19,823 nt of DNA from Myxococcota bacterium (GCA_041288095.1 JBGGMJ010000072.1:1-19823), one strand, 5' to 3'. Positions 1 through 14,891 are shown, counted from the first letter of the stretch. The notes: generated by a model not told the origin, from the letters alone. Made by a program: numbers and translations.

Positions 1-252
1 CCGCCCGGCCACCGCGATAGTGGCGCGCGACACCGCGTTAATGCTGTCGAGGGTACCCTGCGCGTCTCCAGCGCCGAAGGTCGCGCGCACCGGGGCGTCG
101 AGCTCGGGCGACGCGACGGCGAGCTCGACCCACGCGACGCCGTTCGTCTCGAGCGATGGCCCGTTGCAGGGTCGATGGATCTCGAGCTGCAGGGAGGCCT
201 CGCCCCCGCAAGCAGCGAGGCCCGCGATGGTCAGGGCGATGAGCTGCTTCAC
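1..252 (-). CDS. Putative lipoprotein, N-terminal part (runs off the left edge; not in the supplied ORF track)
   Basis: Manual translation from GTG at 252: MKQLIALTIAGLAAC-GGEASLQLEIHRPC..., open to base 1. It has a basic N-terminus, a hydrophobic core and the lipobox LAAC. The start overlaps the stop of the upstream gene (GTGA at 249-252), suggesting translational coupling. Confidence 0.75.
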   Translation of the reverse strand, partial: MKQLIALTIAGLAACGGEASLQLEIHRPCNGPSLETNGVAWVELAVASPELDAPVRATFGAGDAQGTLDSINAVSRATIAVAGR

Positions 253-1541
253 CACGCCGCCTGGACCGAGAGGGTGTCGCTCGGGCGATCGCGGCTCATC
301 AGCAAATACGTGGTGCCGCCGGCGAGCGCGGCGCCCGCGGCGACAGCCGACCAGAACCACCACTTGGTGAAGATGCCGCCGCTCCGCACCTCGCTGGTGC
401 TGGTCGCGAGTGGCGTATCGTCGTAGGCCGGCGCGTAGCTATCGAGCACCGCGAGGTCCGCGGCCAGCGCCGCGTCGCGCTCGAGGTTCACCGCCGCGGA
501 GGCGCGGGTAACCGGCGGAGGCGTTTGCACCGGCGGCGGCGCAAAAGTCGTGAAGGCAGTGCTGTCGTTCAAGGGCCGGCGGTCGGGGACGGCCGCCACG
601 GGCTCAGGAGTCGCAATCACGACGGGTGCCGGCGCAACGACGGCGTCGACGAACGGGGCCACCCCACTCAGCTTGGTCGGTGCGAATTGATGTGTGAGCG
701 CCGCGAGCTCACGTGCGAGCTTTCCACCTTCGATGCTCGCCGACAGCATGGCGGCGTCGACCTTGAGGGTCGGCAGCGTCGTCCAGCGGCCGGTGCGGAC
801 ATCGCCGGCGAAGCCGCCCACGGTGAAGAAGCGATCACCGTTGGCGATACCGAGCAGCACCACGACATCGGCGGCGGGCGCGCGCGCGAGGCTCACCGCG
901 CGAGCGCGCATCCCCGCATCGCACGCATTGGCGGCGATGCCGGCGCGCACGTCGCTGGTAGGTGCCGGTGTCGCGGCAGGTCTCGAATCCTTCGCAGCGC
1001 GCGATCGAACCTCTCTGAAAGCGCTGATGAAAACCGGAGGGTACTTCTTGGCATCGAGGCGCGTGTCCGGCGCCGCTCGTGCCACGCGCTCGAGCGCCTT
1101 GCGACCCTTCGCTTCGTCGCCGCGCCGGTAGTGCGCCTCGGCGAGGAGCAGCGCGGCTTCGGCGGTGCGCGCGTCGTCGCCGGCAAACCCCGCGACCGCG
1201 ACTTCGAGCGCGCTGATGGCCTTGGGGAGCTGAAGCTTCTGCAATGCCTTGCGGCCCTCTGCGAGCTTCCGCGGCGCTCTGGGATCAGTTGCAACCGCGG
1301 GCGCCGCCGCGGACACCGCGTCAGGTGCGGCGACGTCTTGGACGACGATGGCGTCGAGACCTCCGGCCTTGAGCTCCTCGACCACGGCCTGCGTCATTGA
1401 AACGGCAGCGCTCTCGGGAACGCTGCCGCCAATGACCACGACGGGATGCAATGCAATGCGGCCCTTCCCCGCCAATGCTGGGGCCGAGACCGAGAGCGTC
1501 ACCACGCCAAGGACGAATCGTGGGTTGAACAGAGCGGGCAC
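249..1541 (-). CDS. Exported/membrane-anchored hypothetical protein with a TPR-like segment, Pro/Ala linker and C-terminal hydrophobic helix
   Basis: Sec-type signal (RFVLGVVTLSVSAPALA). TPR-like helices (AEAALLLAEAHYRRGDEAKGRKALERVARAAP...LDAKKYPP). C-terminal FTKWWFWSAVAAGAALAGG segment, as seen in myxobacterial TPR/PEGA-type proteins. RBS-like GGAG upstream of the GTG start. Confidence 0.7.
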   Translation of the reverse strand: MPALFNPRFVLGVVTLSVSAPALAGKGRIALHPVVVIGGSVPESAAVSMTQAVVEELKAGGLDAIVVQDVAAPDAVSAAAPAVATDPRAPRKLAEGRKALQKLQLPKAISALEVAVAGFAGDDARTAEAALLLAEAHYRRGDEAKGRKALERVARAAPDTRLDAKKYPPVFISAFREVRSRAAKDSRPAATPAPTSDVRAGIAANACDAGMRARAVSLARAPAADVVVLLGIANGDRFFTVGGFAGDVRTGRWTTLPTLKVDAAMLSASIEGGKLARELAALTHQFAPTKLSGVAPFVDAVVAPAPVVIATPEPVAAVPDRRPLNDSTAFTTFAPPPVQTPPPVTRASAAVNLERDAALAADLAVLDSYAPAYDDTPLATSTSEVRSGGIFTKWWFWSAVAAGAALAGGTTYLLMSRDRPSDTLSVQAAW

Positions 1542-3810: not shown

Positions 3811-5115
3811 ATGCTCGCGTACGAAAAAACGACGCTGGATAACGGTCTGCAGGTGGTGGCGATCCAACAGCCCTACCTGCATTCGAGCGACATCGCGTTC
3901 TTCGTGCGCGTGGGGTCGCGACACGAGCAAGTCGCGCAATGGGGTCTGTCGCATATGGTCGAGCACATGCTCTTCCGCGGCAGCGCGAGTCATCCGGACT
4001 CGTTGTCGCTCGCGCGCGCCTTCGAGAAGAGCGGCGGGCTGCTGAACGCTTCGACCTGGCGTGATCACACGCAGCTCACGGCGACGGTTCACCCCAGTCG
4101 CATGCGCGGTTTTCTGAACGTGCTCGCCGACATGGTCGCGCGCCCCGTGTTTCAAGAGCTCGACGTCGAGCGGCACATCATCGAAGAGGAGCTGCGCTCC
4201 GACCTCGACGCGAGCGGCGAGGACGTGAACATCAACAACGTCTCGCGCGCCAACATCTGGAGCGGCCATCCGATGGGCCGGCGCATCACCGGCTCGGTCG
4301 AGAGCTTGAACGGGTTCGCCGTAAGTGACGTGCAGGCGCATCACGCCCGCCACTACGTTGGGCCGAACGCGGTGCTATGCGTCGCGGGGCCGCTGAAGGC
4401 CGCGGACGTGGTGGCGATTGCCGCCGAGGCGTTCGCGAAGTTTCCCTCCGGGCGCGCGACGACCGACGGAGAGGCCGCGCTCTTCACCGATCGCGACCGG
4501 CTCATCACGCGCAGCGTCTCGAGCTCGCAGCTGTCGGTGCAGCTCACATTCGAGGCAATGCCCGACGTCCACGACGACTTCATGGCGATGCAGTTCCTGA
4601 CGCGCATCTTGGATGACGGGATGGGGTCACGCTTGCAGCAGGCGGTGTGCGAGCGGCGCGGGTTGGTCTACGAGATGACCACGGGGCTCGACTGCTACGC
4701 GGACTGCGGCCTCTACGACATCGAGCTGAAGGTCGCGCCCCGACGCGCGGCTTCGGCGGTCGCGGCAACACTCGATGTCCTGGAGAAGCTCGTTACCGAC
4801 GGTGTGAGCGACAACGAGATCGACGATGTTCGTGAGCGCAGCTTGCATGAGCTCGAGTACCGCATCGACTCGACGACCGAGCTCGCCAACTACTTTGGTG
4901 CCGCGACCTTGTTTGGCTCCGCGCGCACCGATGCGCTGGACCTCGAGATGCTCGAAAACGAAGCCCGCCGGATGCGCGAAGTCAGCGCCGAGAGCGTCTC
5001 GCGGGTGGCCCGGGAGCTCTTTGCCAAGAAGCGTCTGGTGACCACGATCATCGGCCCGATCGAACGGGCAAACATGAAGAAAATCGGGCACTTAGTGGGC
5101 GGCTTCGGAACTTAG
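3811..5115 (+). CDS. M16 (pitrilysin/insulinase-family, M16B-type) zinc peptidase
   Basis: N-terminal TLDNGLQV, GSRHE, inverted zinc motif HMVEH, NASTWRDHT, downstream Glu in ERHIIEEE, HPMGRRITG, and C-terminal-half SRL...ERRGLVY motif. No signal peptide. Confidence 0.93.
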   Translation: MLAYEKTTLDNGLQVVAIQQPYLHSSDIAFFVRVGSRHEQVAQWGLSHMVEHMLFRGSASHPDSLSLARAFEKSGGLLNASTWRDHTQLTATVHPSRMRGFLNVLADMVARPVFQELDVERHIIEEELRSDLDASGEDVNINNVSRANIWSGHPMGRRITGSVESLNGFAVSDVQAHHARHYVGPNAVLCVAGPLKAADVVAIAAEAFAKFPSGRATTDGEAALFTDRDRLITRSVSSSQLSVQLTFEAMPDVHDDFMAMQFLTRILDDGMGSRLQQAVCERRGLVYEMTTGLDCYADCGLYDIELKVAPRRAASAVAATLDVLEKLVTDGVSDNEIDDVRERSLHELEYRIDSTTELANYFGAATLFGSARTDALDLEMLENEARRMREVSAESVSRVARELFAKKRLVTTIIGPIERANMKKIGHLVGGFGT

Positions 5116-5117
5116 TA

Positions 5118-5353
5118 CGCGGCCCGACTTTGGTCGTTGCCAGGCCGTGATCCGAGAGCTATGCAGGTAAGACTGCACCCAAGGCTGGGGGGGCTCCCCA
5201 GGCCTCGTGTGCCGAGTGGTGGTGTGATGACTGGCCGTTCTTCGCAGTAGCCAACCGTGAGGGTTGCCGGTCGTCACGCCACCAGTCGCCACATGATCCG
5301 CAGATGCTGCCGACCGCTATAGCGACTGCGTCGGACACCGAAGCGTCCGACGC
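5118..5353. ncRNA. Candidate structured non-coding element of unknown family (about six stem-loops including a 29-pair stem)
   Basis: Hairpins at 5118-5149, 5162-5177, 5182-5205, 5205-5296 (long stem), 5295-5315 and 5328-5353 (C-UUCG-G loop on the minus strand). No credible coding frame. No match by eye to tRNA, tmRNA, SRP or RNase P hallmarks. Confidence 0.55.
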
Positions 5354-5357
5354 GGAA

Positions 5358-5363
5358 AGCATA
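5358..5363 (-). promoter_or_regulatory. Possible sigma70 -10 hexamer (TATGCT) for a minus-strand transcript starting near 5351
   Basis: AGCATA on + equals TATGCT on -, six nt ahead of the G at 5351 in the UUCG hairpin. No convincing -35 was found. Confidence 0.3.
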
Positions 5364-5467
5364 GCGCCTCTTGACCGTGCGCGAAACAAAAATGCGCAGG
5401 CGTATGTGTATGTAGGGTGGTGTCGCGATCGTTTTTGGCTTCCGCTTTAGCGGACACGACGGAACAT

Positions 5468-5492
5468 CCGGGGAGGGACCACCCTCTCTCGG
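5468..5492 (-). terminator. Hairpin immediately after the DUF1552 stop; possible terminator or 3' stabiliser
   Basis: CCGGGGAGGG-ACCA-CCCTCTCTCGG imperfect stem, 3 nt from the stop codon. It lacks a clear U-tract. Confidence 0.3.
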
Positions 5493-5495
5493 CGT

Positions 5496-6818
5496 CTAGC
5501 TCGTAAGCGCCGACAACAGACCCGTCGAATCCGCGAAGCGATTACCGCCACCGACCATGTTCGTCATCGTCGCGAACAGGTTGGCAATAGGCGTCCTATC
5601 CGGCGCCACGATGTGCCGTCCGCCAGTCACCTGCCCATTCGCGTGCCCCGCCACGATCACCGGCAACCGATCATGATTGTGCGCGTTGCCGTCGCCAATC
5701 TCGCTCGAATAGAACGCGAGCACGTGGTCGATGAGCTTGCCGTTCCCATCATCCGTCTCGGCCATGCGTTGCACCAGATACGCGAACTGCTGCACATCCC
5801 ACGTGTTCACCTTGGCGTACTGGTCGAGCTTGTAGGTGTTGCCCTCGTGATGTGACAGGTCGTGGTGTCCCTCCGCCACCCCGGGCGCGAACCCCGAACG
5901 GCCGCTGCCGCCGTTGCCGCGCATGTAGGTGATGACCCGGGTCACATCGCACTGCATGGCGAGCACCATGACGTCGATCATGTTGCGAACCCGAACGAGC
6001 GTGTCGCCGCCCGCGACCGGCGCCGTCCCCTGGCAAACCGCCCCGCCCTCGAGGTCGCTGCGCTGACTCGTCAACCTCGTATCGAGCTCGTCGACGCTCG
6101 TCATGTACTGATCGAGCTTCTGTTTGTCGCGAACCCCGAGGCGCGTCTCGAGCCGCTTCGCGTCCGCACGCACGAGGTCGACCACACGCTGGCGCCGTCC
6201 CAACGCATGCGCCGCTGCCAGTGCGCTCTCGTCGGGCTCCAGGACGAACTGATTGAACGCCGCGAGAGGGTCCGTGATCTTCGACAGCGGCGTCGTGGCA
6301 TCGGCCCACGAGACGTTGTTGCTGTAGGCGCAGCCGTAACCCGAGTCGCAATTGCCGGAGTTACCACCCGACTCGAGGCCGAGCTGCAGCGAACGAATCT
6401 GCGTCTGCCCGGCGTATCGCGCGGCGATGATCTGATCGACCGAAACCCCGTTACGAATATCGGTATCGCTCTTGTTGGGATGGGCGCAGGTCAAAAACGC
6501 CGCGGTGCCACGCGCATGGTCGCCGGCGCCGTCCGCCTGTGCCGTCGCGCCGTAGTTCCACAGGTTGGAGATCACGTTGATGTGACTCCGCACGGCGGCG
6601 AGCGGCTGCAGCGTCAAGGAGAGGTTCAGCGACCCAAGGGGGCCCACCGACCAGGTGTCGACTCGCTTCCCGCAGGGCACGTAGTAGTACAAGAAGCGCA
6701 GCGGCGGCGTCGCCTGCGCCTTCGCGGCCGTGGGGATCATCGCGTCGAGCAGTGGCAGCGCCAGCACCGTGCCGGTACCGCGCAAGAAGGTGCGTCGCGA
6801 AAGTTGCCATCGCCGCAT
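5496..6818 (-). CDS. DUF1552 family protein, Tat-exported
   Basis: Start placed at ATG 6818 with RBS AGGGAG. Twin-arginine signal MRRWQLSRRTFLRGTGTVLALPLLDAM. Family-typical motifs SVDQIIA, SLQLG, CDSGYGCAYSNNVSW, DKQKLDQY, CDVTRVIT, HHDLSHH, GDGNAHNH, ANLF. Confidence 0.9.
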   Translation of the reverse strand: MRRWQLSRRTFLRGTGTVLALPLLDAMIPTAAKAQATPPLRFLYYYVPCGKRVDTWSVGPLGSLNLSLTLQPLAAVRSHINVISNLWNYGATAQADGAGDHARGTAAFLTCAHPNKSDTDIRNGVSVDQIIAARYAGQTQIRSLQLGLESGGNSGNCDSGYGCAYSNNVSWADATTPLSKITDPLAAFNQFVLEPDESALAAAHALGRRQRVVDLVRADAKRLETRLGVRDKQKLDQYMTSVDELDTRLTSQRSDLEGGAVCQGTAPVAGGDTLVRVRNMIDVMVLAMQCDVTRVITYMRGNGGSGRSGFAPGVAEGHHDLSHHEGNTYKLDQYAKVNTWDVQQFAYLVQRMAETDDGNGKLIDHVLAFYSSEIGDGNAHNHDRLPVIVAGHANGQVTGGRHIVAPDRTPIANLFATMTNMVGGGNRFADSTGLLSALTS

Positions 6819-6829
6819 GCGGAAGCTCC

Positions 6830-8461
6830 CTACTGATTGGTTTGGCGTGAGGTGAACGGACGGCTCGTCGCCATCGCCACGACCAGATCGGTGACGCCGT
6901 ATGCGCTGGCCGAGGTCTGCTCCGCGATGGCGTTCAACGAGCAACGATCGGTACGCTTCATGGCGCGCCCGAGCGCGAAGGTCGCGATCTTCTCGACAGC
7001 GCAAGCCACGGTTTCGGGCTTGCGCGCCAGGGCCTCGGCGAGTGGTACCGGGCCAGCGTAGCGCTCACCTTCGGGCAGCTCGGCCACGACATCGACGACA
7101 TTGCCCTTCTCGTCCTTGCTGCGGGGCTTTCCCAGATTGTCGAAGCCTTCGAAGGCGAGCCCGATGGGGTCCATCACCATGTGGCAGCTCGCGCAGGTCG
7201 GGTCGATCCGGTGTTGCGCGAGTTGCGCACGTTTCGGCGCATTCGGGTCCACCTCGCCGGCCTTCTCATCGATGTCGGCCGGAGGCGCGGCCGGGGGCGC
7301 GCACAGCACTTCGTCGAGCACGAACTTGCCCCGCTTCACCGGGGAGGTCTTGTCGGGGTGCGACGTGCCCGTCAGGTAGCTCGCGTGGCCGAGCACTCCG
7401 GGAACGCGCCCTGGTGGAAGCGCGACTCGCTGGAATTGGTCCCCACTAACGTCAGCGAGCCCGTAGTGCTCGGCCAAGCGGCCGTTGACGAAGGTGTACG
7501 CGGCGCTGAAGAGCTCGGCGACGGGCACGTTGTGCTCGAGCGCGTACTTGAAGAGCGCTTTGGTCTCGCCAGCCATGGCGGCGCGCAGCTCTTCGTCGAA
7601 TTCGGCCGCTGTCGGCTCGGCGTCAGCCAGGAGCCCCAACCCCAGCCACTGAGCCGCGAAGTGATCGACGAGGCTTTGGGCCCGCGGGTCAGCGAGCAGG
7701 CGCTGCGCCTCGGCGGCGAGCACCGTCGGCGTCTTGAGCGAGCCGTTCTCGGCGGCGGCGAGCAACGCGTCGTCGGGCGTGCTGCTCCAGATGAAATACG
7801 ACAGCCGCGTCGCAAGCTCGAACGGGCCAATCGCCTCGACCGCTTCGGCTGCGCCGGATTGCGCCTCGACGCGGAAAATGAAGCTCGGCGAGGAGAGCGC
7901 CGTGGCGACACCAACTTGCACCGCCATGTCGAAGTCGTCACCGTCGGCGCGCGTGTCCGTCAAAGCGGAGTCGAGGCTCGTCTTCTCGATGTCGGTGAGC
8001 GGCCGGCGGAAGGCGCGCTTCGCGAAGCCATGCACGATGGTGCGGAAGCAGGTGATGTCGTCCTGGTTCTGGGGAGTGCAGGTGAGCAGACGCGCCGCCG
8101 TGCCGGCCGGGCGCGCACGATCTCGCGCCATGGCGCGCAGCGCGGCGTCGAAGCCGTTGTCGACGTAGGCGGTCAGGTGGTTGATCGAAGTGCTCAAGAC
8201 GTCGCCGATGGCGTCGAAGCCGAGCGCGCGGTCATCGGCTGGGAGCGTGGCGATGCGGTCGACGTCGTCGCCCAGCAAGTCACGCAAGGTGTTGCGGTAC
8301 TCGATGCGCGAAAGACGGCGCATGGTGACGCGGCCGGGGTCGGCCGGGCCGTTGCACAGGGCAGCGTCGTTGGAGGAAGGCGAAATGTCGCCAGCGGGGT
8401 CACCAATGGTGCCCGAACAGGCGAACGCGAAAGCACACACCACTGCCAGCGTGAGGCGCAT
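6830..8461 (-). CDS. DUF1592-family multidomain protein (DUF1587-DUF1595-DUF1592-DUF1588-DUF1585), predicted lipoprotein with one CxxCH motif
   Basis: Start ATG 8461 with RBS GAGGT; lipobox AFAFAC. Motifs RRLSRIEYRNTLRDLLG, FAKRAFRRPL, ELATRLSYFIWSSTPDDALL, FAAQWLGL, TSPVKRGKFVL, CASCH..MDPIGLAFEGFD, FALGR. Confidence 0.9.
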   Translation of the reverse strand: MRLTLAVVCAFAFACSGTIGDPAGDISPSSNDAALCNGPADPGRVTMRRLSRIEYRNTLRDLLGDDVDRIATLPADDRALGFDAIGDVLSTSINHLTAYVDNGFDAALRAMARDRARPAGTAARLLTCTPQNQDDITCFRTIVHGFAKRAFRRPLTDIEKTSLDSALTDTRADGDDFDMAVQVGVATALSSPSFIFRVEAQSGAAEAVEAIGPFELATRLSYFIWSSTPDDALLAAAENGSLKTPTVLAAEAQRLLADPRAQSLVDHFAAQWLGLGLLADAEPTAAEFDEELRAAMAGETKALFKYALEHNVPVAELFSAAYTFVNGRLAEHYGLADVSGDQFQRVALPPGRVPGVLGHASYLTGTSHPDKTSPVKRGKFVLDEVLCAPPAAPPADIDEKAGEVDPNAPKRAQLAQHRIDPTCASCHMVMDPIGLAFEGFDNLGKPRSKDEKGNVVDVVAELPEGERYAGPVPLAEALARKPETVACAVEKIATFALGRAMKRTDRCSLNAIAEQTSASAYGVTDLVVAMATSRPFTSRQTNQ

Positions 8462-8650
8462 CGTGGACCTCGGTGCCGAGAGTAACGGCACGAGAGTCCG
8501 CCTAAGCGAACAGCGTGCCAAAGCACGCCGCCGGCTTAAGTGCGCGTTCTAGCTTGGTCGGCTACTCGAGCGTTGAGGAGCACGGACCACAACGTGGGTG
8601 TGCAGCCCCCACGCATTCGTCCCCCCTACCATCCGGAAAACGCCCGACAA

Positions 8651-9850
8651 TCAGAGCGAAGCAGTGGCCTGGCCGCCGTTCACCGACGACTTCGAAGGCG
8701 CGTCCTTCTTCGATGGGGCCGAGCCCCTCACGTACTGGCGGAACAGCACATAGAGCGGCGCCGAGACCGCGATGGTCGAGTAGCTGCCGAGCACGATGCC
8801 CACGGTCATGCAGAGCGCGAAGTCGCGCGTGACCGTGCCGCCGAAGATGAGGATGGCGAGGACGACCGCGAGCGTCGCGAACGAGGTGATGAGGGTACGC
8901 GCCAGGGTCTCGTTGATCGAGGTGTCGACCAGCGCCTTCAAGTCGCGTCCGCGCAAACGGACCATATTTTCGCGTACGCGGTCGAAGATGACGATGGTGT
9001 CGTTGAGCGAGTAACCCATGAGCGTGAGGATGGCCGCGACGATGGGCAGATTGAACTCGATCTGGAAGACCGAGAAGAAGCCCATGATGATGACGGCGTC
9101 GTGCACGAGCGTGATGACGGCACCCGGTGCGAAGAAGAAGTCGAAGCGCAAGGCGATGTAGAAGAGGATGAAGATCATCGAGTAGATGACCGCGAGGATG
9201 CCTTGGTTGCGCAGCTGCGCGCCGACCTGCGGGCCGACGAACTCGGTGCGCTGCACGAGCTGGTGGTCGGCTGGGATCTCGAAGGCCTTCACCAAGGCGC
9301 CCTGCACCTTGTCGGCGACCGAGATCAGCTCGACGACGTATTCGGGACGATCGACGCGCTCCCCGGCGTTGATGCGCTTCACTTCGAGAGCGTATTTGCC
9401 GAGGACGCCCTTCAGCTGCTCTTCCGTGACCGGCTTGGTGAAGCCGACGATGATGTTCTCACCGCTCTCGGCGACCGAGAAGTTGCCAACGCCGGTCTCG
9501 CCACCGGCGAGCGCTTCGATGTCGTGCTTGAGCTGGGTGCGTTGCTCTTCGGTGAGCGCGCTCTCTTGGCGCACCAGCACCAAGAACTCGTTCGCCGAGG
9601 CGTCGCCGTAGCGTTGGACGCGCGAGTCACCGAGCCCGAGCGACTCGACGACCTTCTGGACCTTCTCTTCTTCGACCTTCTTGTCGAACTTCACCTGGAG
9701 CTCGTAGCCGCCGGCGAAGTCGATGCCGAAGTTGATACCGCGAGTGAACAGCGACACCACGCTGATGACCAGCATCGCCGCGGAGATGGCGATGTAGACC
9801 CGGTTCAACGACATCCATTGGACGGTGGGCTGCTTGGCAAGAAAACGCAT
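8651..9850 (-). CDS. secF: Protein translocase subunit SecF
   Basis: GINFGIDFAGG, VGPQVGAQL, YIALRF, LVHD, GYSLNDTIVIFDRVREN, SINETLARTLITS. RBS GAGG; follows secD. Confidence 0.97.
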   Translation of the reverse strand: MRFLAKQPTVQWMSLNRVYIAISAAMLVISVVSLFTRGINFGIDFAGGYELQVKFDKKVEEEKVQKVVESLGLGDSRVQRYGDASANEFLVLVRQESALTEEQRTQLKHDIEALAGGETGVGNFSVAESGENIIVGFTKPVTEEQLKGVLGKYALEVKRINAGERVDRPEYVVELISVADKVQGALVKAFEIPADHQLVQRTEFVGPQVGAQLRNQGILAVIYSMIFILFYIALRFDFFFAPGAVITLVHDAVIIMGFFSVFQIEFNLPIVAAILTLMGYSLNDTIVIFDRVRENMVRLRGRDLKALVDTSINETLARTLITSFATLAVVLAILIFGGTVTRDFALCMTVGIVLGSYSTIAVSAPLYVLFRQYVRGSAPSKKDAPSKSSVNGGQATASL

Positions 9851-9864
9851 GAGTTACCTCGGCC

Positions 9865-11652
9865 TCAGATGCTCAGCGTCTGCACGCGGCGGCGGTTGAT
9901 GAAGAAGTCGAAGATGACGCGAGTGAACACGACGGCGGTGAAGAGCGAGCAGATGATGCCGACGATGAGCGATACGGCGAAGCCGCGCACCGGGCCCGTA
10001 CCGTACTGCATGAGCACGACGCCGGAGATGAGCGTAGTAACGTTCGAGTCGAAGATACTGCTGAACGCCTTCTGATAACCGGCATCGACAGCGGCGCGCA
10101 CCGGCTTACCGGCGGCGAGCTCGTCACGTATGCGCTCGAAGATGAGCACGTTGGAGTCGACCGCCATGCCGACGGTGAGCACGATGCCCGCCATACCGGG
10201 CAAGGTCAGCGTCGCCTCGAAGAGCGACAGCACCGCCATGAGCAGGAAGATGTTGAGCACCAGCGCGAGGTCCGCGATGACGCCCGACAAGCGGTAGTAG
10301 AGCAGCATGAAGATGATGAGGAAGCCGGTGCCGACGATGATGGCGATGCTGCCGTCGTGCACCGCCTGGTCACCCAAGGTGCGGCCGACTTGGCGCTTCT
10401 CGGAGACCTCGACGGGAGCCGGGAGCGCGCCCGACTTCAAGACGAGCGCGAGGTTCTTGGCCTCCTCGAGCTCGTAGCGCGGATCGCCGGAGCCCAAGGT
10501 GATGCGGGCGTGGCCGCCGCCGATCTTTTCGCTGATGGACGGCGCGCTGTTGACGTTGCCGTCGAGCACGATGGCCATGCGGCGCTTCACGTTGTCCGCC
10601 GTCAGCTTCTCGAAGACCTTGGCGCCCTCGGGATCGAACTCGATGCCGACGTGATGGCGCGAGCGGACTTCCTGGTCCTGCTGAACGGTGGCGTTGATCA
10701 GATAATCACCGGTGATGCCGGCGCGCGCGTCGAGCACGTAGGTGCGGAAGGTCTCGTTGCGCTGCGAGGCGGCGCCCCGCTTCTCGCCGATGCGGCCGAA
10801 GGCGATGTCGCGGTTACCCGGGATCTTCGTCGCGAGTAGGTCCTTGACCGCGTTACGCTCGGACGCCGGCAGCTCGAAGTAGACCTCGCGCATGCTCTGG
10901 CCGTTGGGACCTTCAAGGAGGTCCTCACGCTTGACGACGCCCGCCGGCAAGTCGGCGATGCTGTCGAAGGCGGCGGTCGCCTCGGTATCGACGATCTTGA
11001 ACTCGAGCTGCGCGGTGCGGCCGATGACGTCGATGGCGCGCTCCGGATCTTTCACGCCCGGGAGCTGCACCAGGATGCTGTTGGTGCCGCGCTTGGCGAT
11101 TTGCGGCTCGGTGACGCCGAGCTTGTCGGCGCGGTTGCGGATGACGTTGATCGCCTGATCGACCGCGTTGGTGCGCACGGCCTCGGCTTCCTGCGGTACG
11201 AGCTCGAGATGCATGGTCGCGCCATCGCGGCTCGCCATGTTGAGGACCGTGAAGTCACGCGCGAGCAAGGTGCGGGCGCTCTCGACGTTGGTGTCGGGTG
11301 CCAGCTCGAGCACCAGCTCGCTCTGGTCACGCGGACGGTCGAGCTTGGTGAAGGCGATGTTGTCCTTCTTGAGCCCTTCGCGCAGCGCGTCGGCGACGCG
11401 GTCGAGGCGCTGCTCGATGGCCTTCTCGACGCGGACGGTCATGACCAGGTGCACGCCGCCCTGGAGGTCGAGACCCAGGTTGAAGATCTTGCAGTGCGAC
11501 CAGGCGGGTAGCGACTTGCAGAAGACGTCGCGGTCGTCCTTCTGCTCCTGCGTCGCGCCGCCGTAGTACTCGACCGAGGGATACAGCATGAAGGCCGCGG
11601 CGCCGATGACACCGACGACGAAGATCAGACGAAGCACCCAGTTGCTGTTCAT
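9865..11652 (-). CDS. secD: Protein translocase subunit SecD
   Basis: LGLDLQGGVHL, IRNRADKLGVTEPQI, ILVQLPG, TAQLEF, MAIVLDG, LKSGALPAP, ATLTLPGMAGIVLTVGMAVDSNVLIFERIRDE, DSNVTT, GPVRGFAVSL. Confidence 0.97.
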   Translation of the reverse strand: MNSNWVLRLIFVVGVIGAAAFMLYPSVEYYGGATQEQKDDRDVFCKSLPAWSHCKIFNLGLDLQGGVHLVMTVRVEKAIEQRLDRVADALREGLKKDNIAFTKLDRPRDQSELVLELAPDTNVESARTLLARDFTVLNMASRDGATMHLELVPQEAEAVRTNAVDQAINVIRNRADKLGVTEPQIAKRGTNSILVQLPGVKDPERAIDVIGRTAQLEFKIVDTEATAAFDSIADLPAGVVKREDLLEGPNGQSMREVYFELPASERNAVKDLLATKIPGNRDIAFGRIGEKRGAASQRNETFRTYVLDARAGITGDYLINATVQQDQEVRSRHHVGIEFDPEGAKVFEKLTADNVKRRMAIVLDGNVNSAPSISEKIGGGHARITLGSGDPRYELEEAKNLALVLKSGALPAPVEVSEKRQVGRTLGDQAVHDGSIAIIVGTGFLIIFMLLYYRLSGVIADLALVLNIFLLMAVLSLFEATLTLPGMAGIVLTVGMAVDSNVLIFERIRDELAAGKPVRAAVDAGYQKAFSSIFDSNVTTLISGVVLMQYGTGPVRGFAVSLIVGIICSLFTAVVFTRVIFDFFINRRRVQTLSI

Positions 11653-12044: not shown

Positions 12045-12308
12045 GCGGGGCGCGGCGTAGCACAGCGGTGTCACAAAGAGCAATGCGAACGCGATCGGCC
12101 AAGGTACTTGCGACGCCGTGACACGGTTTTCGGGACCGAAATGGGCCCTTGGAGCCCACTATTTCAGCAACTTCCACTCTCACGGGTCACCAGCTAACCC
12201 CCTGAGACAAATTGTGAAGTTACAGCAATGACTCGCAGGCAACTCGGCAAAAACACGCCCGATATCCCTTGGGCGCGGTTTTCGTCCCTTCTGTACCGGG
12301 AGCTTTTC

Positions 12309-14891
12309 GTGAGTTCTTTGTCGCTCGAGCGTGTCAGCCCCCTCACCGTCATTGCCTCAAGCAAAGAACCCATCTCGAGCGCCCTCATCGCCGAGGCAAC
12401 GGCCAAGACGAAAAAACCGGAGCAAGCCGCCCTTCAGGCTCGCCGCGAGCTCCGCGAGATCATCGACACCAAGGTGCTCGGTGACAAGACGCCCGAGGTC
12501 ACTCCCGAGCTCGCCGCCGAGCTTGCCAAGATCGAAAGCATCGAGAAGGTCCGCCCGCTGAACAACCTCGCGGCCGAGATGTTCGCCCACCGCATTCCAC
12601 CGGCCGAGTCCGTGATCGTGCCGTCGAGGGGTGTCCAGGCCGGCTCGCACGCGCTCCAGGCACTCGTCCTCGGCGCCCGCGCCGCCATGGAAGGCCAGCT
12701 CGCTACCGACACCGAGGAACAGAAGGCCAGCAAGGCCGGCGTCCTCGAGCTGCTGGGCGACGTCGCAACGTCCGCGCAGGTGAGCTTCTTGCTCAGCGCT
12801 TGGGCGAGCTTTGCCAAGCCGGCCGGCAGCGGCAAATTCACGGTTCCGAACGAGATCCTGCCCGACCTCGCCGAAGGCATGCGGGCGATGCACCAAGCGA
12901 TGACCGCGCTTACGCCGGAGGCGCTGAAGCTCGCGCTCGGCGCCATCGCCGGCAAGATGAACGGCCTCCCCGGGCTCATGCCGGGCATGGGCGGCGCCGA
13001 AGGCGGCAAGGTCGCGGCCAAGCTCACCCCCGAGCAGCTCGAAGCGAAGAAGAAGGCCGCTGAAGCGGACATGAAGCGCCCGATCGGCGGCCTCGACCAA
13101 GGCAAGCTCGAGGAGCTCTACGGCAAGCTCAACGTGGCGTCGCGCGCCGGCGAGTTCGTCTACGGCGTCCGCAAGGCCCGCCCCGCTTGGTACCGCGAGG
13201 TCGTGAACGTCGTCCGCGCGCATCCGGTGACGATGCAGCTCGAGCCGATCATCCACCGCATCCTCGGCAACATCGCGGCGCAGCAGCGCGAAGTCGAGAC
13301 GACGTTCGCCGGCCGCGAGATCAGCAAGGAGCTCCTCGCGAGCAACACGGACAAGCAGCTCGCGGCGCTCTACCACGCGGCCCGCGAGGTCGCCGACGCC
13401 CTCGGCGCCGGTCCAGACCTGTCGCTCTTGCGCACGCCGAGCCTCACCCCGAACGCCTACGTTTACATGGCGAACTTCGACGCCCCGCGCGTCGTCGTAC
13501 ACGATGCGTTCGTGCGCATGTGCTGGGACAGCGAGACCAAGGACTTCATCAAGATTGGCATCAAGGACGGTCAAGCCGTGCCGGCGAATACGCCCGGCGC
13601 CGAGATCATCCCGATCGGTAAGCTGGTCTTCCAGGACGTCGTCGGTCACGAGCTTGGCCACATTCGCGACGGCATCCCCTTCACCCGCATCGCGCTGGGC
13701 GTGCTCACCGGCAACGCCATGCGCAACGCCGCCAGCGCGACCGACAAGGCCGCCGCCCACGAGCACAGCGCCGGCTGCCAGTGCGGGCTCCAGGCGGAGA
13801 CCGCGGGCTTCGACGACATCCTGGCCAAGGTGATGGCGGACCCATCGATCCAGAAGTTCCTGCCGCAGGGTGGCGCGACCGACAAGGTCGAGGTCTTGCA
13901 AGACCGCCTGGAAGACCTCTTGGGCGCCAAGCTCATGAAGGAGACCGCCGGCGGCGCCAGCGGGCTCTTCTCGCAGCTGACCCGCGAGGCCGAAGCCACG
14001 GCGGACCAGCTCTCGACCATGCATCGCGGCACCGGCAAGCACCTGGCCATGTTCTTCGACATCATTCGTCGCGCCTCGAGCGCCGGCACCTCGGCGGAGC
14101 GTGAGGACTTGATGATCGAGTCCTTCAATCGCGATCTCGTCGCCGAGCTCAAGAGCACGATGCTGCGCGCGCAGAAGACCGCGTTCAACGGCCAAGCAGC
14201 GCTCGGCGGCTCGTCGTCGCACCCGCCGGAAGCCTTCCGCGCCATCGGCAACGCTCAGTTCGCCGACACCCTGCCGGCGAAGATCGCCTCGGTCTACCGC
14301 GCCCTGCCCCCGCAATTCCGTACCGTGGCCGCGGCGGTCGCCATCGACGCCGGCATCGAACGGCAAGAGGACATCATGTCCGCGTTCTCGTCGAGCATGT
14401 CGGCGCACACCGACAAGGTCTTCGAGTCGGTCGTCAGCGAGGCACGCCACGAGGACCTCTTGAAGCGACTGTCGATCGTCACCGGCGCGCTCGCCGAGCT
14501 CGCGTTCCGCGACGGCGTCCGCTTGAAGGAAGGCGAGCCCGACGGCTTCGTCTTCGAGATCATCCAGTTCATCCGCAGCATCGCGGGCCAGCTGTTCGCG
14601 CAGCACGCCGAGCCGGGTGACAGCGAGCTCCTCGCCGATGTCGAGCCGATGCGCCCCGCGCAGGGCGTCAACACCTACGAGCAGCTCGCGGTCGAGCTCG
14701 CCAAGCGCGTCGCCGAGGCCGGCGAGAAGATGCCGGCCGAGGAGCGCAAGCTGTGGCTGACCGCCATCGGCATGCTCAAGAAGAGCGCCTCCGAAGGCGA
14801 AGAGCAGCTCAAGGAATCGCGCCAGGAAGCCAAGGCTCGCACCGCTAAAGCGGTCATGTCGAGCAGCGCGCGCAGTCGATCACGCAGCTAG
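12309..14891 (+). CDS. Large (~860 aa) M48-like zinc metalloprotease with long uncharacterised helical extensions
   Basis: Ordered M48 motifs: TPNAYV...RVVVHDAF, VVGHELGH (13647-13661), REAEATAD (~13983-14006), SHP...R (~14217-14240). Start moved to the in-frame GTG at 12309, which is preceded by GGGAG. Confidence 0.72.
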   Translation: MSSLSLERVSPLTVIASSKEPISSALIAEATAKTKKPEQAALQARRELREIIDTKVLGDKTPEVTPELAAELAKIESIEKVRPLNNLAAEMFAHRIPPAESVIVPSRGVQAGSHALQALVLGARAAMEGQLATDTEEQKASKAGVLELLGDVATSAQVSFLLSAWASFAKPAGSGKFTVPNEILPDLAEGMRAMHQAMTALTPEALKLALGAIAGKMNGLPGLMPGMGGAEGGKVAAKLTPEQLEAKKKAAEADMKRPIGGLDQGKLEELYGKLNVASRAGEFVYGVRKARPAWYREVVNVVRAHPVTMQLEPIIHRILGNIAAQQREVETTFAGREISKELLASNTDKQLAALYHAAREVADALGAGPDLSLLRTPSLTPNAYVYMANFDAPRVVVHDAFVRMCWDSETKDFIKIGIKDGQAVPANTPGAEIIPIGKLVFQDVVGHELGHIRDGIPFTRIALGVLTGNAMRNAASATDKAAAHEHSAGCQCGLQAETAGFDDILAKVMADPSIQKFLPQGGATDKVEVLQDRLEDLLGAKLMKETAGGASGLFSQLTREAEATADQLSTMHRGTGKHLAMFFDIIRRASSAGTSAEREDLMIESFNRDLVAELKSTMLRAQKTAFNGQAALGGSSSHPPEAFRAIGNAQFADTLPAKIASVYRALPPQFRTVAAAVAIDAGIERQEDIMSAFSSSMSAHTDKVFESVVSEARHEDLLKRLSIVTGALAELAFRDGVRLKEGEPDGFVFEIIQFIRSIAGQLFAQHAEPGDSELLADVEPMRPAQGVNTYEQLAVELAKRVAEAGEKMPAEERKLWLTAIGMLKKSASEGEEQLKESRQEAKARTAKAVMSSSARSRSRS

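What the first reader, a model, noticed from the sequence alone, without database searches (positions are those of the whole stretch)
5118..5363. Unannotated ~240-nt structured element whose two halves appear to fold on opposite strands (msr/msd-like layout, no reverse transcriptase in the window)
Seen: a long stem, 5205-5235 pairing with 5266-5296, with 29 of 31 positions paired. All four of its non-Watson-Crick pairs are G.T on the + strand and would be C.A mismatches on the - strand. Flanking hairpins 5118-5149 and 5182-5205 also gain G.T pairs on +. In contrast, hairpins 5328-5353 (GCGUCGGACGC-UUCG-GUGUCCGACGC, a C(UUCG)G tetraloop plus G.U) and 5295-5315 fold better on the - strand, just downstream of a TATGCT -10-like hexamer. 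The switch in strand preference falls at ~5295. Established: retron ncRNAs have a 5' msr that folds as RNA and a 3' msd whose complement folds as a long DNA stem, and msDNA was discovered in myxobacteria. Inference: this could be an orphan or trans-served RT template, two convergent overlapping sRNAs, or a single novel ncRNA. Caveats: the a1/a2-like pairing is weak (minus-strand GCGGUCGGC, 5317-5309, followed by AGC, with GUCGGGCCGC, 5128-5119), and it would leave an unusually short msr.
Basis: partly seen in the sequence, partly recalled or inferred. Interest (0 to 1): 0.75.

Follow-up and report, generated by a model that had tools for sequence, protein, structure and literature searches.

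The report
New hairpin small RNA in Myxococcota
The long stem is real and is the core of a previously undescribed, roughly 95-nucleotide hairpin small RNA gene kept by one uncultured order of Myxococcota; it is not a retron, and the hairpins that fold on the other strand most likely belong to the end of the neighbouring convergent operon.

Summary
In detail: 5205-5235 pairs with 5266-5296 (25 Watson-Crick, 4 G.T, 2 mismatches). The + strand folds far better than the - strand (-62.1 vs -43.4 kcal/mol).

The hairpin is single-copy in its genome. It is the only part of the spacer conserved beyond the genus. Covariance models find it once per genome in 19 of 22 genomes of the order and in 0 of 129 other genomes sampled from the phylum. 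20 of 29 pairs show compensatory changes, and G.U pairs favour the + strand 90 to 11.

Outside the window's genus, 11 of 13 genomes have a sigma70-like promoter just upstream and 6 of 13 a T-run just after the stem. The locus is syntenic: histidine kinase or M16 peptidase, then the RNA, then convergent secF. Three soil metatranscriptomes hold it.

It has no Rfam match, and SRP and 6S RNAs lie elsewhere. No reverse transcriptase was found in this genome or genus, so the retron reading is not supported.

Hairpins 5293-5355 do prefer the - strand and are genus-specific. They are probably the 3' end of the convergent DUF1552 operon. Function is unknown.

The parts
5205..5296 (+). Core of the conserved small RNA: one long hairpin. 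P1 is 5205-5235 with 5266-5296. P2 is 5239-5245 with 5257-5263. The apical loop is about 5246-5256.
   Evidence: R1 hit 5200-5299 at 99.5 bits; R2 hit 5205-5295 at 86.6 bits. MFE -62.1, z -8.4. 20 of 29 pairs compensatory, 0 of 500 shuffles reach this. 90 G.U cells on + against 11 that would be G.U on -.
5250..5257 (+). GCCAACCG at the tip of the hairpin. GCCAAC is invariant in all 24 aligned sequences and CG nearly so.
   Evidence: Alignment A3 gives G51-C56 invariant and C57, G58 at 90% or more. Mean unpaired probability is 0.28-0.82, and 0.5 or more in 20 of 21 distinct sequences.
5137..5165 (+). Weak candidate promoter of the RNA in this genus: TTGCCA (5137-5142), 17 nt, TATGCA (5160-5165). 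It predicts a start near 5172-5175.
   Evidence: Best hexamer pair in the 80 nt upstream, kept in G000, G001 and G002. It fails the consensus scan and is not above background. The X16 metatranscriptome contig starts about 32 nt before 5207.
5182..5205 (+). Small genus-specific hairpin between the candidate promoter and the core. It is probably a 5' leader of the RNA in this genus.
   Evidence: Present in G000, G001, G002 and G003, absent in other families. Weak fold: z -1.3 on +, -3.1 on -.
5118..5149 (+). Hairpin directly after the stop codon of the M16 peptidase gene (5113-5115). Possibly that gene's terminator. Not part of the conserved RNA.
   Evidence: Fold -16.3 (+) and -16.0 (-), so no strand preference. 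Conserved only within the genus.
5293..5317 (-). Small hairpin that folds on the - strand only. Genus-specific.
   Evidence: -10.4 on - (z -2.6) against -4.4 on +. My reading of the sequences is that the inner helix differs between G000 and G001 with pairing kept on the - strand; this was not computed.
5326..5355 (-). GC-rich hairpin with a UUCG loop on the - strand, about 140 nt downstream of the DUF1552 stop (5496). Probably the 3'-end or terminator structure of that convergent operon, and possibly a bidirectional stop.
   Evidence: -22.4 (-) against -20.2 (+). In relatives the - strand is clearly better: G002 -30.0 vs -23.8, G001 -21.8 vs -13.8, with the UUCG loop kept. There is no T-run.
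3811..5115 (+). Upstream gene: M16 (insulinase-type) peptidase.
   Evidence: Pfam PF00675 1e-26 and PF05193 2.7e-28.
5496..7004 (-). Convergent downstream gene: DUF1552 (HXXSHH) protein, first of a pair with a DUF1592/1588 protein (6830-8521). The pair lies between the RNA and secF in the window.
   Evidence: Pfam PF07586 7.8e-80. In other families secF follows the RNA directly.

Best explanation
Window 5205-5296 (+) is the core of an independently transcribed small non-coding RNA of a new family. The RNA is one long, very stable hairpin of about 95 nt. In this genus it probably has a short 5' leader starting near 5172-5175.

The family is single-copy and vertically inherited. It sits at one syntenic locus (PAS histidine kinase or M16 peptidase, then the RNA, then convergent secF-secD). 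It is restricted to one uncultured order, which is also the whole class, of Myxococcota.

The basal stem only needs to pair. The upper stem (about 11 bp, with one strongly kept U.G wobble) and the GCCAACC apical loop are fixed in sequence. The hairpin followed by a T-run also acts as the RNA's own terminator in the lower-GC relatives.

Mechanism (inferred, not shown): it acts in trans through the fixed upper helix and loop.
- About 40%: it is the RNA part of a protein complex or a protein-sequestering RNA. I lean to this because helix sequence, not just pairing, is conserved.
- About 35%: the loop seeds base-pairing with GGUUGGC-containing mRNAs.

The - strand hairpins at 5293-5355 are a separate, genus-specific feature. 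They are most likely the 3' end of the convergent DUF1552 operon. The 'two halves on two strands' are therefore two abutting convergent transcription units, not one retron template.

The confidence of 0.8 is for the identity (a new + strand small-RNA gene, not a retron), not for the mechanism.
For: Conservation and distribution
- Single copy in the genome.
- Beyond the genus only about 5213-5288 is conserved, at 73-83% identity, in 9 genomes of 3 other families.
- R1 finds one locus per genome in 17 of 22 genomes of the order. R2 finds 19 of 22. Both find 0 of 129 genomes elsewhere in the phylum.
- A strict pattern scan of one genome for each of 185,579 species returned 9 loci. All coincide with genomes of this order.

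Structure
- 29 pairs, 20 with compensatory changes, 94.3% of 609 cells paired. 0 of 500 shuffles and no slid register come close.

Strand
- 90 G.U cells on + against 11 A.C cells.
- -62.1 vs -43.4 kcal/mol.

Transcription signals
- In 11 of 13 non-genus genomes a TTGAC(A/T)-16/17-TAnnnT-type match (8-11 of 12) lies within 50 nt upstream. Each ranks in the top 6.5% or better of background windows.
- 6 of 13 have a run of 4 or more T right after the stem.

Synteny
- secF is convergent just downstream in 11 of 11 loci scanned.
- The upstream ORF is the PAS histidine kinase in 8 and the M16 peptidase in 2 of 12 scanned.

Expression hint
- One contig in each of three soil metatranscriptomes from three studies covers 5206/5207 to 5293-5326.
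- One of them carries an adapter tail about 2 nt before 5206.

Not a known RNA
- 0 Rfam matches at gathering score, and only junk at E up to 10.
- SRP RNA and 6S RNA are at other loci.
- No tRNA or tmRNA in the window.
Against: - No promoter-like or terminator-like consensus site exists in the window itself. In all 4 genomes of this genus the 50 nt upstream are no better than background. Here the RNA might be made by read-through or processing from the M16 mRNA.
- The metatranscriptome evidence is thin. It is one low-depth contig (2.6-5.3) per run. Contigs carry no strand.
- Function is not shown.
  - A scan of the genome for sites complementary to the loop gave a continuous score distribution. 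Its best Watson-Crick site lies inside a coding motif.
  - No Hfq, ProQ or Ro60 gene was found in this 90%-complete assembly.
- 3 of 22 genomes lack a detectable copy. In G016 there is no spacer at all between secF and the kinase gene.
- Relatedness of the sequences inflates shuffle-based covariation statistics.
Confidence: 0.8

Rival explanations
1. Retron-like msr/msd, or an orphan or trans-served RT template. A - strand transcript would be reverse-transcribed into a + sense ssDNA stem.
For: A long imperfect stem with G.T pairs would also be allowed in ssDNA. The hairpins next to it do prefer the other strand. 8 of 22 genomes of the order have some RVT_1 gene.
Against: - No RVT_1 hit in G000 or in 0 of 4 genomes of the genus. 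9 of the 17 R1-positive genomes have none, and no RT lies on the RNA's contig.
- The putative msr half (5297-5363) is not conserved outside the genus.
- Promoters and T-runs are on the + strand.
- The locus is vertically inherited and syntenic, unlike mobile retrons.
- The proposed a1/a2 pair was not reported by the repeat finder at 10 nt or more.
Confidence: 0.02
2. No trans function. The hairpin is only a (bidirectional) terminator or structural spacer between convergent operons: the kinase/M16 genes on + and secDF on -.
For: It always lies between convergent genes. In G004 and G005 the secF stop is only about 6-20 nt from the hairpin. In some relatives the stem is followed by a T-run.
Against: - Terminators do not keep an invariant loop motif and an 11-bp invariant helix across families.
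- There is a dedicated promoter 1-12 nt upstream of the model match, at the base of the stem, in most relatives.
- There is a strong one-strand G.U bias.
- The sequence is retained at 96-99% within the genus even though two inserted genes now separate the RNA from secF, about 3.3 kb away.
Confidence: 0.07
3. Same RNA gene, different mechanism. It is a base-pairing regulator whose single-stranded C-rich apical loop (GCCAACC) seeds kissing or antisense pairing with GGUUGGC-containing mRNA sites.
For: The only invariant single-stranded stretch is the loop. C-rich loop seeds are used by sRNAs of other high-GC bacteria (recalled: the 6C RNA of Actinobacteria; not checked here).
Against: - No outstanding complementary site in the genome.
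- GGTTGGC is not clearly enriched in the window: 6 found (one being the RNA's own complement) against 2.5 expected, and 4 of 200 shuffles reach 6.
- Helix sequence is conserved far beyond what a seed model needs.
- No Hfq or ProQ found.
Confidence: 0.35
4. In this genus the RNA is not a separate gene but a processed 3' UTR piece of the M16 peptidase (or kinase-M16) mRNA.
For: There is no consensus promoter within 50 nt in 4 of 4 genus members, nor in the window. The RNA is on the same strand, 90 nt after the M16 stop.
Against: A hairpin right after the M16 stop (5118-5149) could terminate that mRNA. A weak TTGCCA-17-TATGCA pair is kept in 3 of 4 genus members, and one RNA contig starts where it predicts. 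Other families have their own clear promoter.
Confidence: 0.15
5. The - strand hairpins (5355 to 5293) are a second, independent small RNA started from the TATGCT at 5363-5358, convergent with and slightly overlapping the + strand RNA.
For: The - strand preference of both hairpins is real and kept in the genus. TATGCT is present.
Against: No acceptable -35 by my own reading of the - strand sequence upstream of TATGCT (not computed). 0 promoter-like sites by the scan. The region is conserved only within the genus. It lies downstream of the DUF1552 gene on the same strand, where a 3' UTR or terminator is expected.
Confidence: 0.1

Closest known systems
Retron msr-msd non-coding RNA
   Same: A long imperfect stem inside a roughly 240-nt structured intergenic stretch. 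Retrons were first found in myxobacteria (established knowledge).
   Different: No RT next to it or in the genome. Only the stem is conserved. The transcript strand is opposite to what the layout needs. The element is single-copy, syntenic and vertically inherited across an order.
Bacterial small SRP (4.5S) RNA
   Same: A housekeeping-style, single-copy hairpin RNA of about 100 nt. It has its own promoter, a freely covarying basal stem and a sequence-fixed apical part.
   Different: The genome's real SRP RNA is elsewhere (G000:C15:1765-1856, 56.7 bits). This RNA does not match RF00169 or any other Rfam model. It is confined to one order.
Pxr sRNA of Myxococcus and Cystobacterineae
   Same: A lineage-specific small regulatory RNA in the same phylum.
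   Different: Pxr has three stem-loops and is confined to Cystobacterineae (passages of PMC11928866). This RNA is one long hairpin in a different, uncultured class. No Rfam match of any kind was found. I recall that Pxr has an Rfam model, but I did not verify its accession.
Intrinsic or bidirectional terminators between convergent genes
   Same: A GC-rich hairpin between convergent genes, followed by a T-run in 6 of 13 relatives. The genus-specific - strand hairpin 5326-5355 probably is one.
   Different: The 92-nt hairpin has an invariant loop and upper helix, its own promoter and one-strand G.U bias. It is far longer than terminator stems.

Membership tests
Retron (msr-msd ncRNA + RT) | Reverse transcriptase gene adjacent to, and co-transcribed with, the ncRNA | tested here: not met
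   Flanking genes are an M16 peptidase and a DUF1552 protein. 0 RVT_1 hits in the whole assembly (90% complete). 0 of 4 in the genus.
Retron (msr-msd ncRNA + RT) | a1/a2 inverted repeats bracketing msr-msd | tested here: not met
The proposed 5309-5317 / 5119-5128 pair is not among the 11 inverted pairs of 10 nt or more reported for 5050-5550.
Retron (msr-msd ncRNA + RT) | Both msr and msd parts conserved together with the RT; patchy, mobile distribution | tested here: not met
   Only 5213-5288 is conserved outside the genus. There is one syntenic locus per genome in 19 of 22 genomes of the order.
Retron (msr-msd ncRNA + RT) | Production of branched msDNA | not testable with these tools
   Needs an msDNA preparation.
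Any Rfam 15 family | Score at or above the family's gathering threshold | tested here: not met
   0 matches in the whole window. The best sub-threshold hits are miRNA-shaped noise, for example mir-431 at 23.6 of 70 bits.
Bacterial small SRP RNA / 6S RNA | Being the genome's copy of that universal RNA | tested here: not met
   SRP RNA is at G000:C15 (56.7 bits) and 6S at G000:C187 (65.1 bits), both over the cut-off.
Y RNA / YrlA | Co-occurrence with a Ro60 (TROVE) protein | tested here: not met
   0 TROVE hits in G000. The assembly is 90% complete.
Multicopy repeat (REP/MITE-like) | Many copies per genome | tested here: not met
   The only full match in G000 is the locus itself. Other matches are 16-50 nt at E 0.02 or worse.
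Independent bacterial sRNA gene (generic) | Conserved structure with covariation on one strand | tested here: met
   20 of 29 pairs compensatory. 90 vs 11 strand-specific wobble cells.
Independent bacterial sRNA gene (generic) | Own promoter and terminator | tested here: inconclusive
   Met in most relatives: 11 of 13 have a promoter-like site and 6 of 13 a T-run. Not met in the window or its genus.
Independent bacterial sRNA gene (generic) | Discrete transcript detected | tested here: inconclusive
   Contigs in 3 metatranscriptomes cover the hairpin. There is no strand information, no defined ends and no DNA-carry-over control.

The most novel reading that the evidence does not exclude
This is the RNA subunit of a so far unknown ribonucleoprotein that is housekeeping-like for one uncultured class of Myxococcota. 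It would be a lineage-specific counterpart of SRP, 6S or Y RNAs, recognised through its invariant wobble-containing upper helix and GCCAACC loop, rather than an ordinary base-pairing regulator.
Probability: 0.25. Interest if true: 0.7.

Novelty: new member of a known kind. Interest (0 to 1): 0.42.

Why it matters
The finding turns an odd intergenic fold into a well-supported new RNA family, with structure, strand, promoter, phyletic range and synteny defined. The family belongs to a Myxococcota lineage known only from metagenomes, where no non-coding RNA has been described as far as my three literature searches show.

The sequence-fixed upper helix and loop give concrete handles for finding its partner by pull-down or comparative target prediction. 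The case also shows that opposite strand preferences in adjacent hairpins can simply mark two convergent transcription units, which is a useful caution for sequence-only retron calls.

Tried and rejected
- Rfam at gathering and at E up to 10: nothing usable.
- tRNA/tmRNA scan of the window: 0.
- Multicopy repeat: rejected.
- SRP or 6S identity: rejected, both lie elsewhere.
- Y RNA: no Ro60 found.
- RF01811 was searched on a mis-recalled accession. It is PtaRNA1, not Pxr, and the result is irrelevant.
- Coding potential: loop-length differences between relatives are not multiples of three, and the + frame has stops inside the stem (my reading). Rejected.
- Target search for the loop complement in G000: 1037 seed sites and no outlier. 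The one site with 9+10 Watson-Crick matches lies inside a CDS, within a YGWPDCEE-coding stretch of an ORF I did not annotate, and was judged chance. GGTTGGC in the window: 6 against 2.5 expected, not informative.
- Metagenome pattern scan: 71 loci, of which only 7 are true members by R1. L076 (27.3 bits) was dropped as a different hairpin after alignment.
- G010 spacer (466 nt, z -3.4) contains GCCAAC next to a long-range stem. It was not detected by R1 or R2 and is left undecided.
- G007 (65% complete) and G016 (no spacer): no copy found.
- Hfq and ProQ: not found in G000. This is uninformative for mechanism.
- Earlier findings of this scan: none for this place or sequence.
- Uncovered flanks in the RNA runs are not evidence of silence. 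The runs were found with this stretch and come from relatives.

Full report
**1. The observation**

The finding lies in a 380-bp gap between two convergent genes. One is an M16 peptidase gene (3811-5115, +). The other is a DUF1552 gene (5496-7004, -).

The long stem is exactly as described. Arms 5205-5235 and 5266-5296 give 25 Watson-Crick pairs, 4 G.T pairs and 2 mismatches.

Folded alone, 5203-5298 reaches -62.1 kcal/mol on the + strand (z -8.4; 0 of 200 shuffles as good). On the - strand it reaches only -43.4 (z -4.1).

The strand switch near 5295 is also real. 5293-5317 gives -10.4 on - and -4.4 on +. 5326-5355 gives -22.4 on -, with a C(UUCG)G loop, and -20.2 on +.

Two small claims do not hold in energy terms. 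5116-5152 has no strand preference, and 5180-5207 is slightly better on the - strand.

**2. What is conserved**

The 401-nt spacer is single-copy in the 5.85-Mb, 90%-complete assembly, so it is not a repeat.

Among 40 relatives, the three other genomes of the genus match along most of the spacer at 79-91% identity. In nine genomes from three other families of the order, only about 5213-5288, the long hairpin, matches, at 73-83% identity.

A covariance model of 13 sequences (R1) finds one locus per genome in 17 of 22 genomes of the order. The class contains the same 22 genomes. R1 finds none in 129 other genomes sampled from the phylum.

Inspecting the secF-proximal spacer of the R1-negative genomes gave these results:
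- A shorter, divergent variant is present in both genomes of family f7. It has the same GCCAACC loop, the same 3' arm motif and a promoter-like site, and lies between the kinase gene and secF.
- G016 has no spacer at all.
- G010 is undecided.
- G007 is only 65% complete.

A second model that includes the variants (R2) finds 19 of 22 genomes in the order and again 0 of 129 elsewhere.

A strict pattern scan of one genome for each of 185,579 species returned 9 loci. All sit at the coordinates of genomes of this order. Their records are titled Myxococcota, Deltaproteobacteria or 'Bdellovibrionales' MAGs.

A looser pattern scan of metagenome contigs returned 71 loci, of which 7 are true members by R1.

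**3. Structure and strand**

I aligned 24 sequences, 21 of them distinct (A3). RNAalifold predicts one helix of 29 pairs, and 20 of these show changes on both sides with pairing kept.

Pair counting gives 94.3% of 609 cells paired and a covariation score of 0.541, against 0.235 for shuffles. 0 of 500 shuffles reach any of the five measures. All slid registers fall to 30-52% paired. The sequences are related, so these shuffle figures overstate significance, but the slid-register control does not share that weakness.

The strand is settled independently of the model. 90 cells are G.U on the + strand. Only 11 are A.C, which would be G.U on the - strand.

Per-sequence folds agree on the architecture:
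- a long P1 helix;
- a small internal loop;
- a short P2 helix (window 5239-5245 with 5257-5263);
- an apical loop of about 11 nt carrying the invariant GCCAAC (window 5250-5255).

The basal stem varies freely with compensation. About 11 bp of the upper stem are nearly invariant. One wobble is strongly kept, U.G in 18 of 21 sequences at window 5228/5273.

**4. Transcription signals and context**

Outside the window's genus, a sigma70-like hexamer pair lies in the 50 nt upstream of the stem base in 11 of 13 genomes. These pairs are of the TTGAC(A/T) or TTTGCA, 16-17 nt, TATAAG/TAATGT/TAACAT/TAAAAT type and match 8-11 of 12 positions. In each of the 11 genomes they rank within the top 6.5% of background windows, and within the top 3.4% in 10 of them.

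In 6 of 13 genomes a run of four or more T follows the stem directly. There the whole RNA is a hairpin of about 95-100 nt that is its own terminator.

In the window and its genus, no such promoter lies within 50 nt (0 of 4), and the consensus scan finds nothing. The best candidate is TTGCCA (5137-5142), 17 nt, TATGCA (5160-5165), kept in 3 of 4 genus members. It would add a 30-nt leader holding the small hairpin 5182-5205.

The synteny is strong.
- secF is convergent immediately downstream in 11 of 11 loci scanned.
- The upstream ORF was scanned in 12 loci. It is a same-strand PAS-HisKA-HATPase kinase in 8 and a same-strand M16 peptidase in 2. One fragment had no hit, and in G006 the neighbour is a divergently oriented sigma54 activator.
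- In the window, a DUF1552 / DUF1592-1588 gene pair lies between the RNA and secF (8651-9850) and secD (9865-11652).

**5. Expression**

20 public runs hold part of the stretch. Most hold about 0.14-0.24 of the sampled words, which corresponds roughly to the hairpin.

In three soil metatranscriptomes from three studies, one contig each (151-165 nt, depth 2.6-5.3, 95-100% alike) covers 5206/5207 to 5293, 5298 or 5326. The contigs then run on into unlike sequence, so they come from relatives of the genus.
- One contig carries an adapter-like tail about 2 nt before 5206.
- Another starts about 32 nt upstream, where the weak promoter predicts a start.

These are hints only. Contigs carry no strand or ends, depth is low, and I could not lay a control stretch.

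**6. What it is not**

- No Rfam family matches, and there is no tRNA or tmRNA.
- SRP RNA and 6S RNA are found elsewhere in the genome, above their cut-offs.
- No Ro60 gene was found.
- Retron: no RVT_1 gene in this assembly, none in the four genomes of the genus, and none in 9 of the 17 genomes that R1 finds positive. Where an RT exists it is on another contig.
- The part that would be msr (5297-5363) is not conserved beyond the genus.
- Every strand indicator contradicts a - strand template.

The one caveat is that the assembly is 90% complete.

**7. The other half**

The hairpins at 5293-5317 and 5326-5355 are conserved only within the genus, and they fold better on the - strand there too. 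For the 65-nt context the values are G002 -30.0 vs -23.8 and G001 -21.8 vs -13.8, with the UUCG loop kept. G003 shows no preference, -23.8 vs -24.5.

These hairpins lie on the coding strand of the DUF1552 operon, about 140-200 nt after its stop codon. In the window that operon lies next to the RNA, where other families have secF directly. The simplest reading is a 3' UTR or terminator structure of that operon, abutting the 3' end of the + strand RNA. An independent - strand sRNA from TATGCT (5363-5358) is possible but lacks a -35 and any conservation.

**8. Mechanism**

- Shown: a conserved, strand-specific, single-copy hairpin with promoter and terminator signals in relatives.
- Inferred: it acts in trans.

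Because helix sequence, and not only pairing, is fixed in the upper stem together with the loop, I lean to recognition by a protein, as an RNP or a sequestering RNA (about 40%). Loop-seeded base-pairing is nearly as likely (about 35%).

A genome scan for loop complements gave no outlier. Hfq and ProQ were not found. Neither result decides the question.

**9. Novelty**

Three full-text searches found nothing on such an RNA. The only myxobacterial sRNA that surfaced is Pxr. It has three stem-loops and is confined to Cystobacterineae. I read passages of PMC11928866, not the whole paper.

Earlier notes of this scan hold nothing for this place or sequence.

This is a new family of a known kind, a bacterial small RNA, with good comparative support and unknown function. 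It is moderately interesting.

Noticed in passing
window 5087-5123: A 17-nt direct repeat 20 nt apart (5087-5103 and 5107-5123, 82% alike) straddles the M16 stop codon. It looks like a small tandem duplication at the gene's end.
   Followed up: no
window 5496-8521 (-): A DUF1552 (HXXSHH) gene and a DUF1592/1588/1585/1595/1587 gene form a pair. In the window the pair lies between the RNA and secF. In the other families secF follows the RNA directly.
   Followed up: partly
window 249-1541 (-) and 12228-14891 (+): Long ORFs of 430 aa and 887 aa have no Pfam family at E 0.001 or better. The 511-aa ORF 8540-10075 (+) also has none, but it overlaps secF on the other strand and is probably spurious.
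   Followed up: no
L135:1398-1474 (+) and L140:1211-1286 (+): Family f7 (G014, G009) carries a shorter, divergent form of the RNA, with an extra 5' hairpin in G014. R1 missed it and R2 scores it only 29-32 bits.
   Followed up: yes
L134:2665-3130 (- strand): In G010 the 466-nt spacer after secF folds with z -3.4. It has GCCAAC directly after a 5' arm that resembles the family's upper stem with flipped pairs. This is possibly a much-expanded variant, or chance.
   Followed up: partly
G012:C596:508-1140, G015:C128 and C212, G017:C177 and others: Reverse-transcriptase (RVT_1) genes occur in 8 of 22 genomes of the order, all of them among the RNA-positive genomes, but never on the RNA's contig. 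Their type (retron, group II intron, DGR) was not examined.
   Followed up: no
G000 whole assembly: No Hfq, ProQ/FinO or Ro60 (TROVE) gene was detected in this 90%-complete assembly.
   Followed up: no
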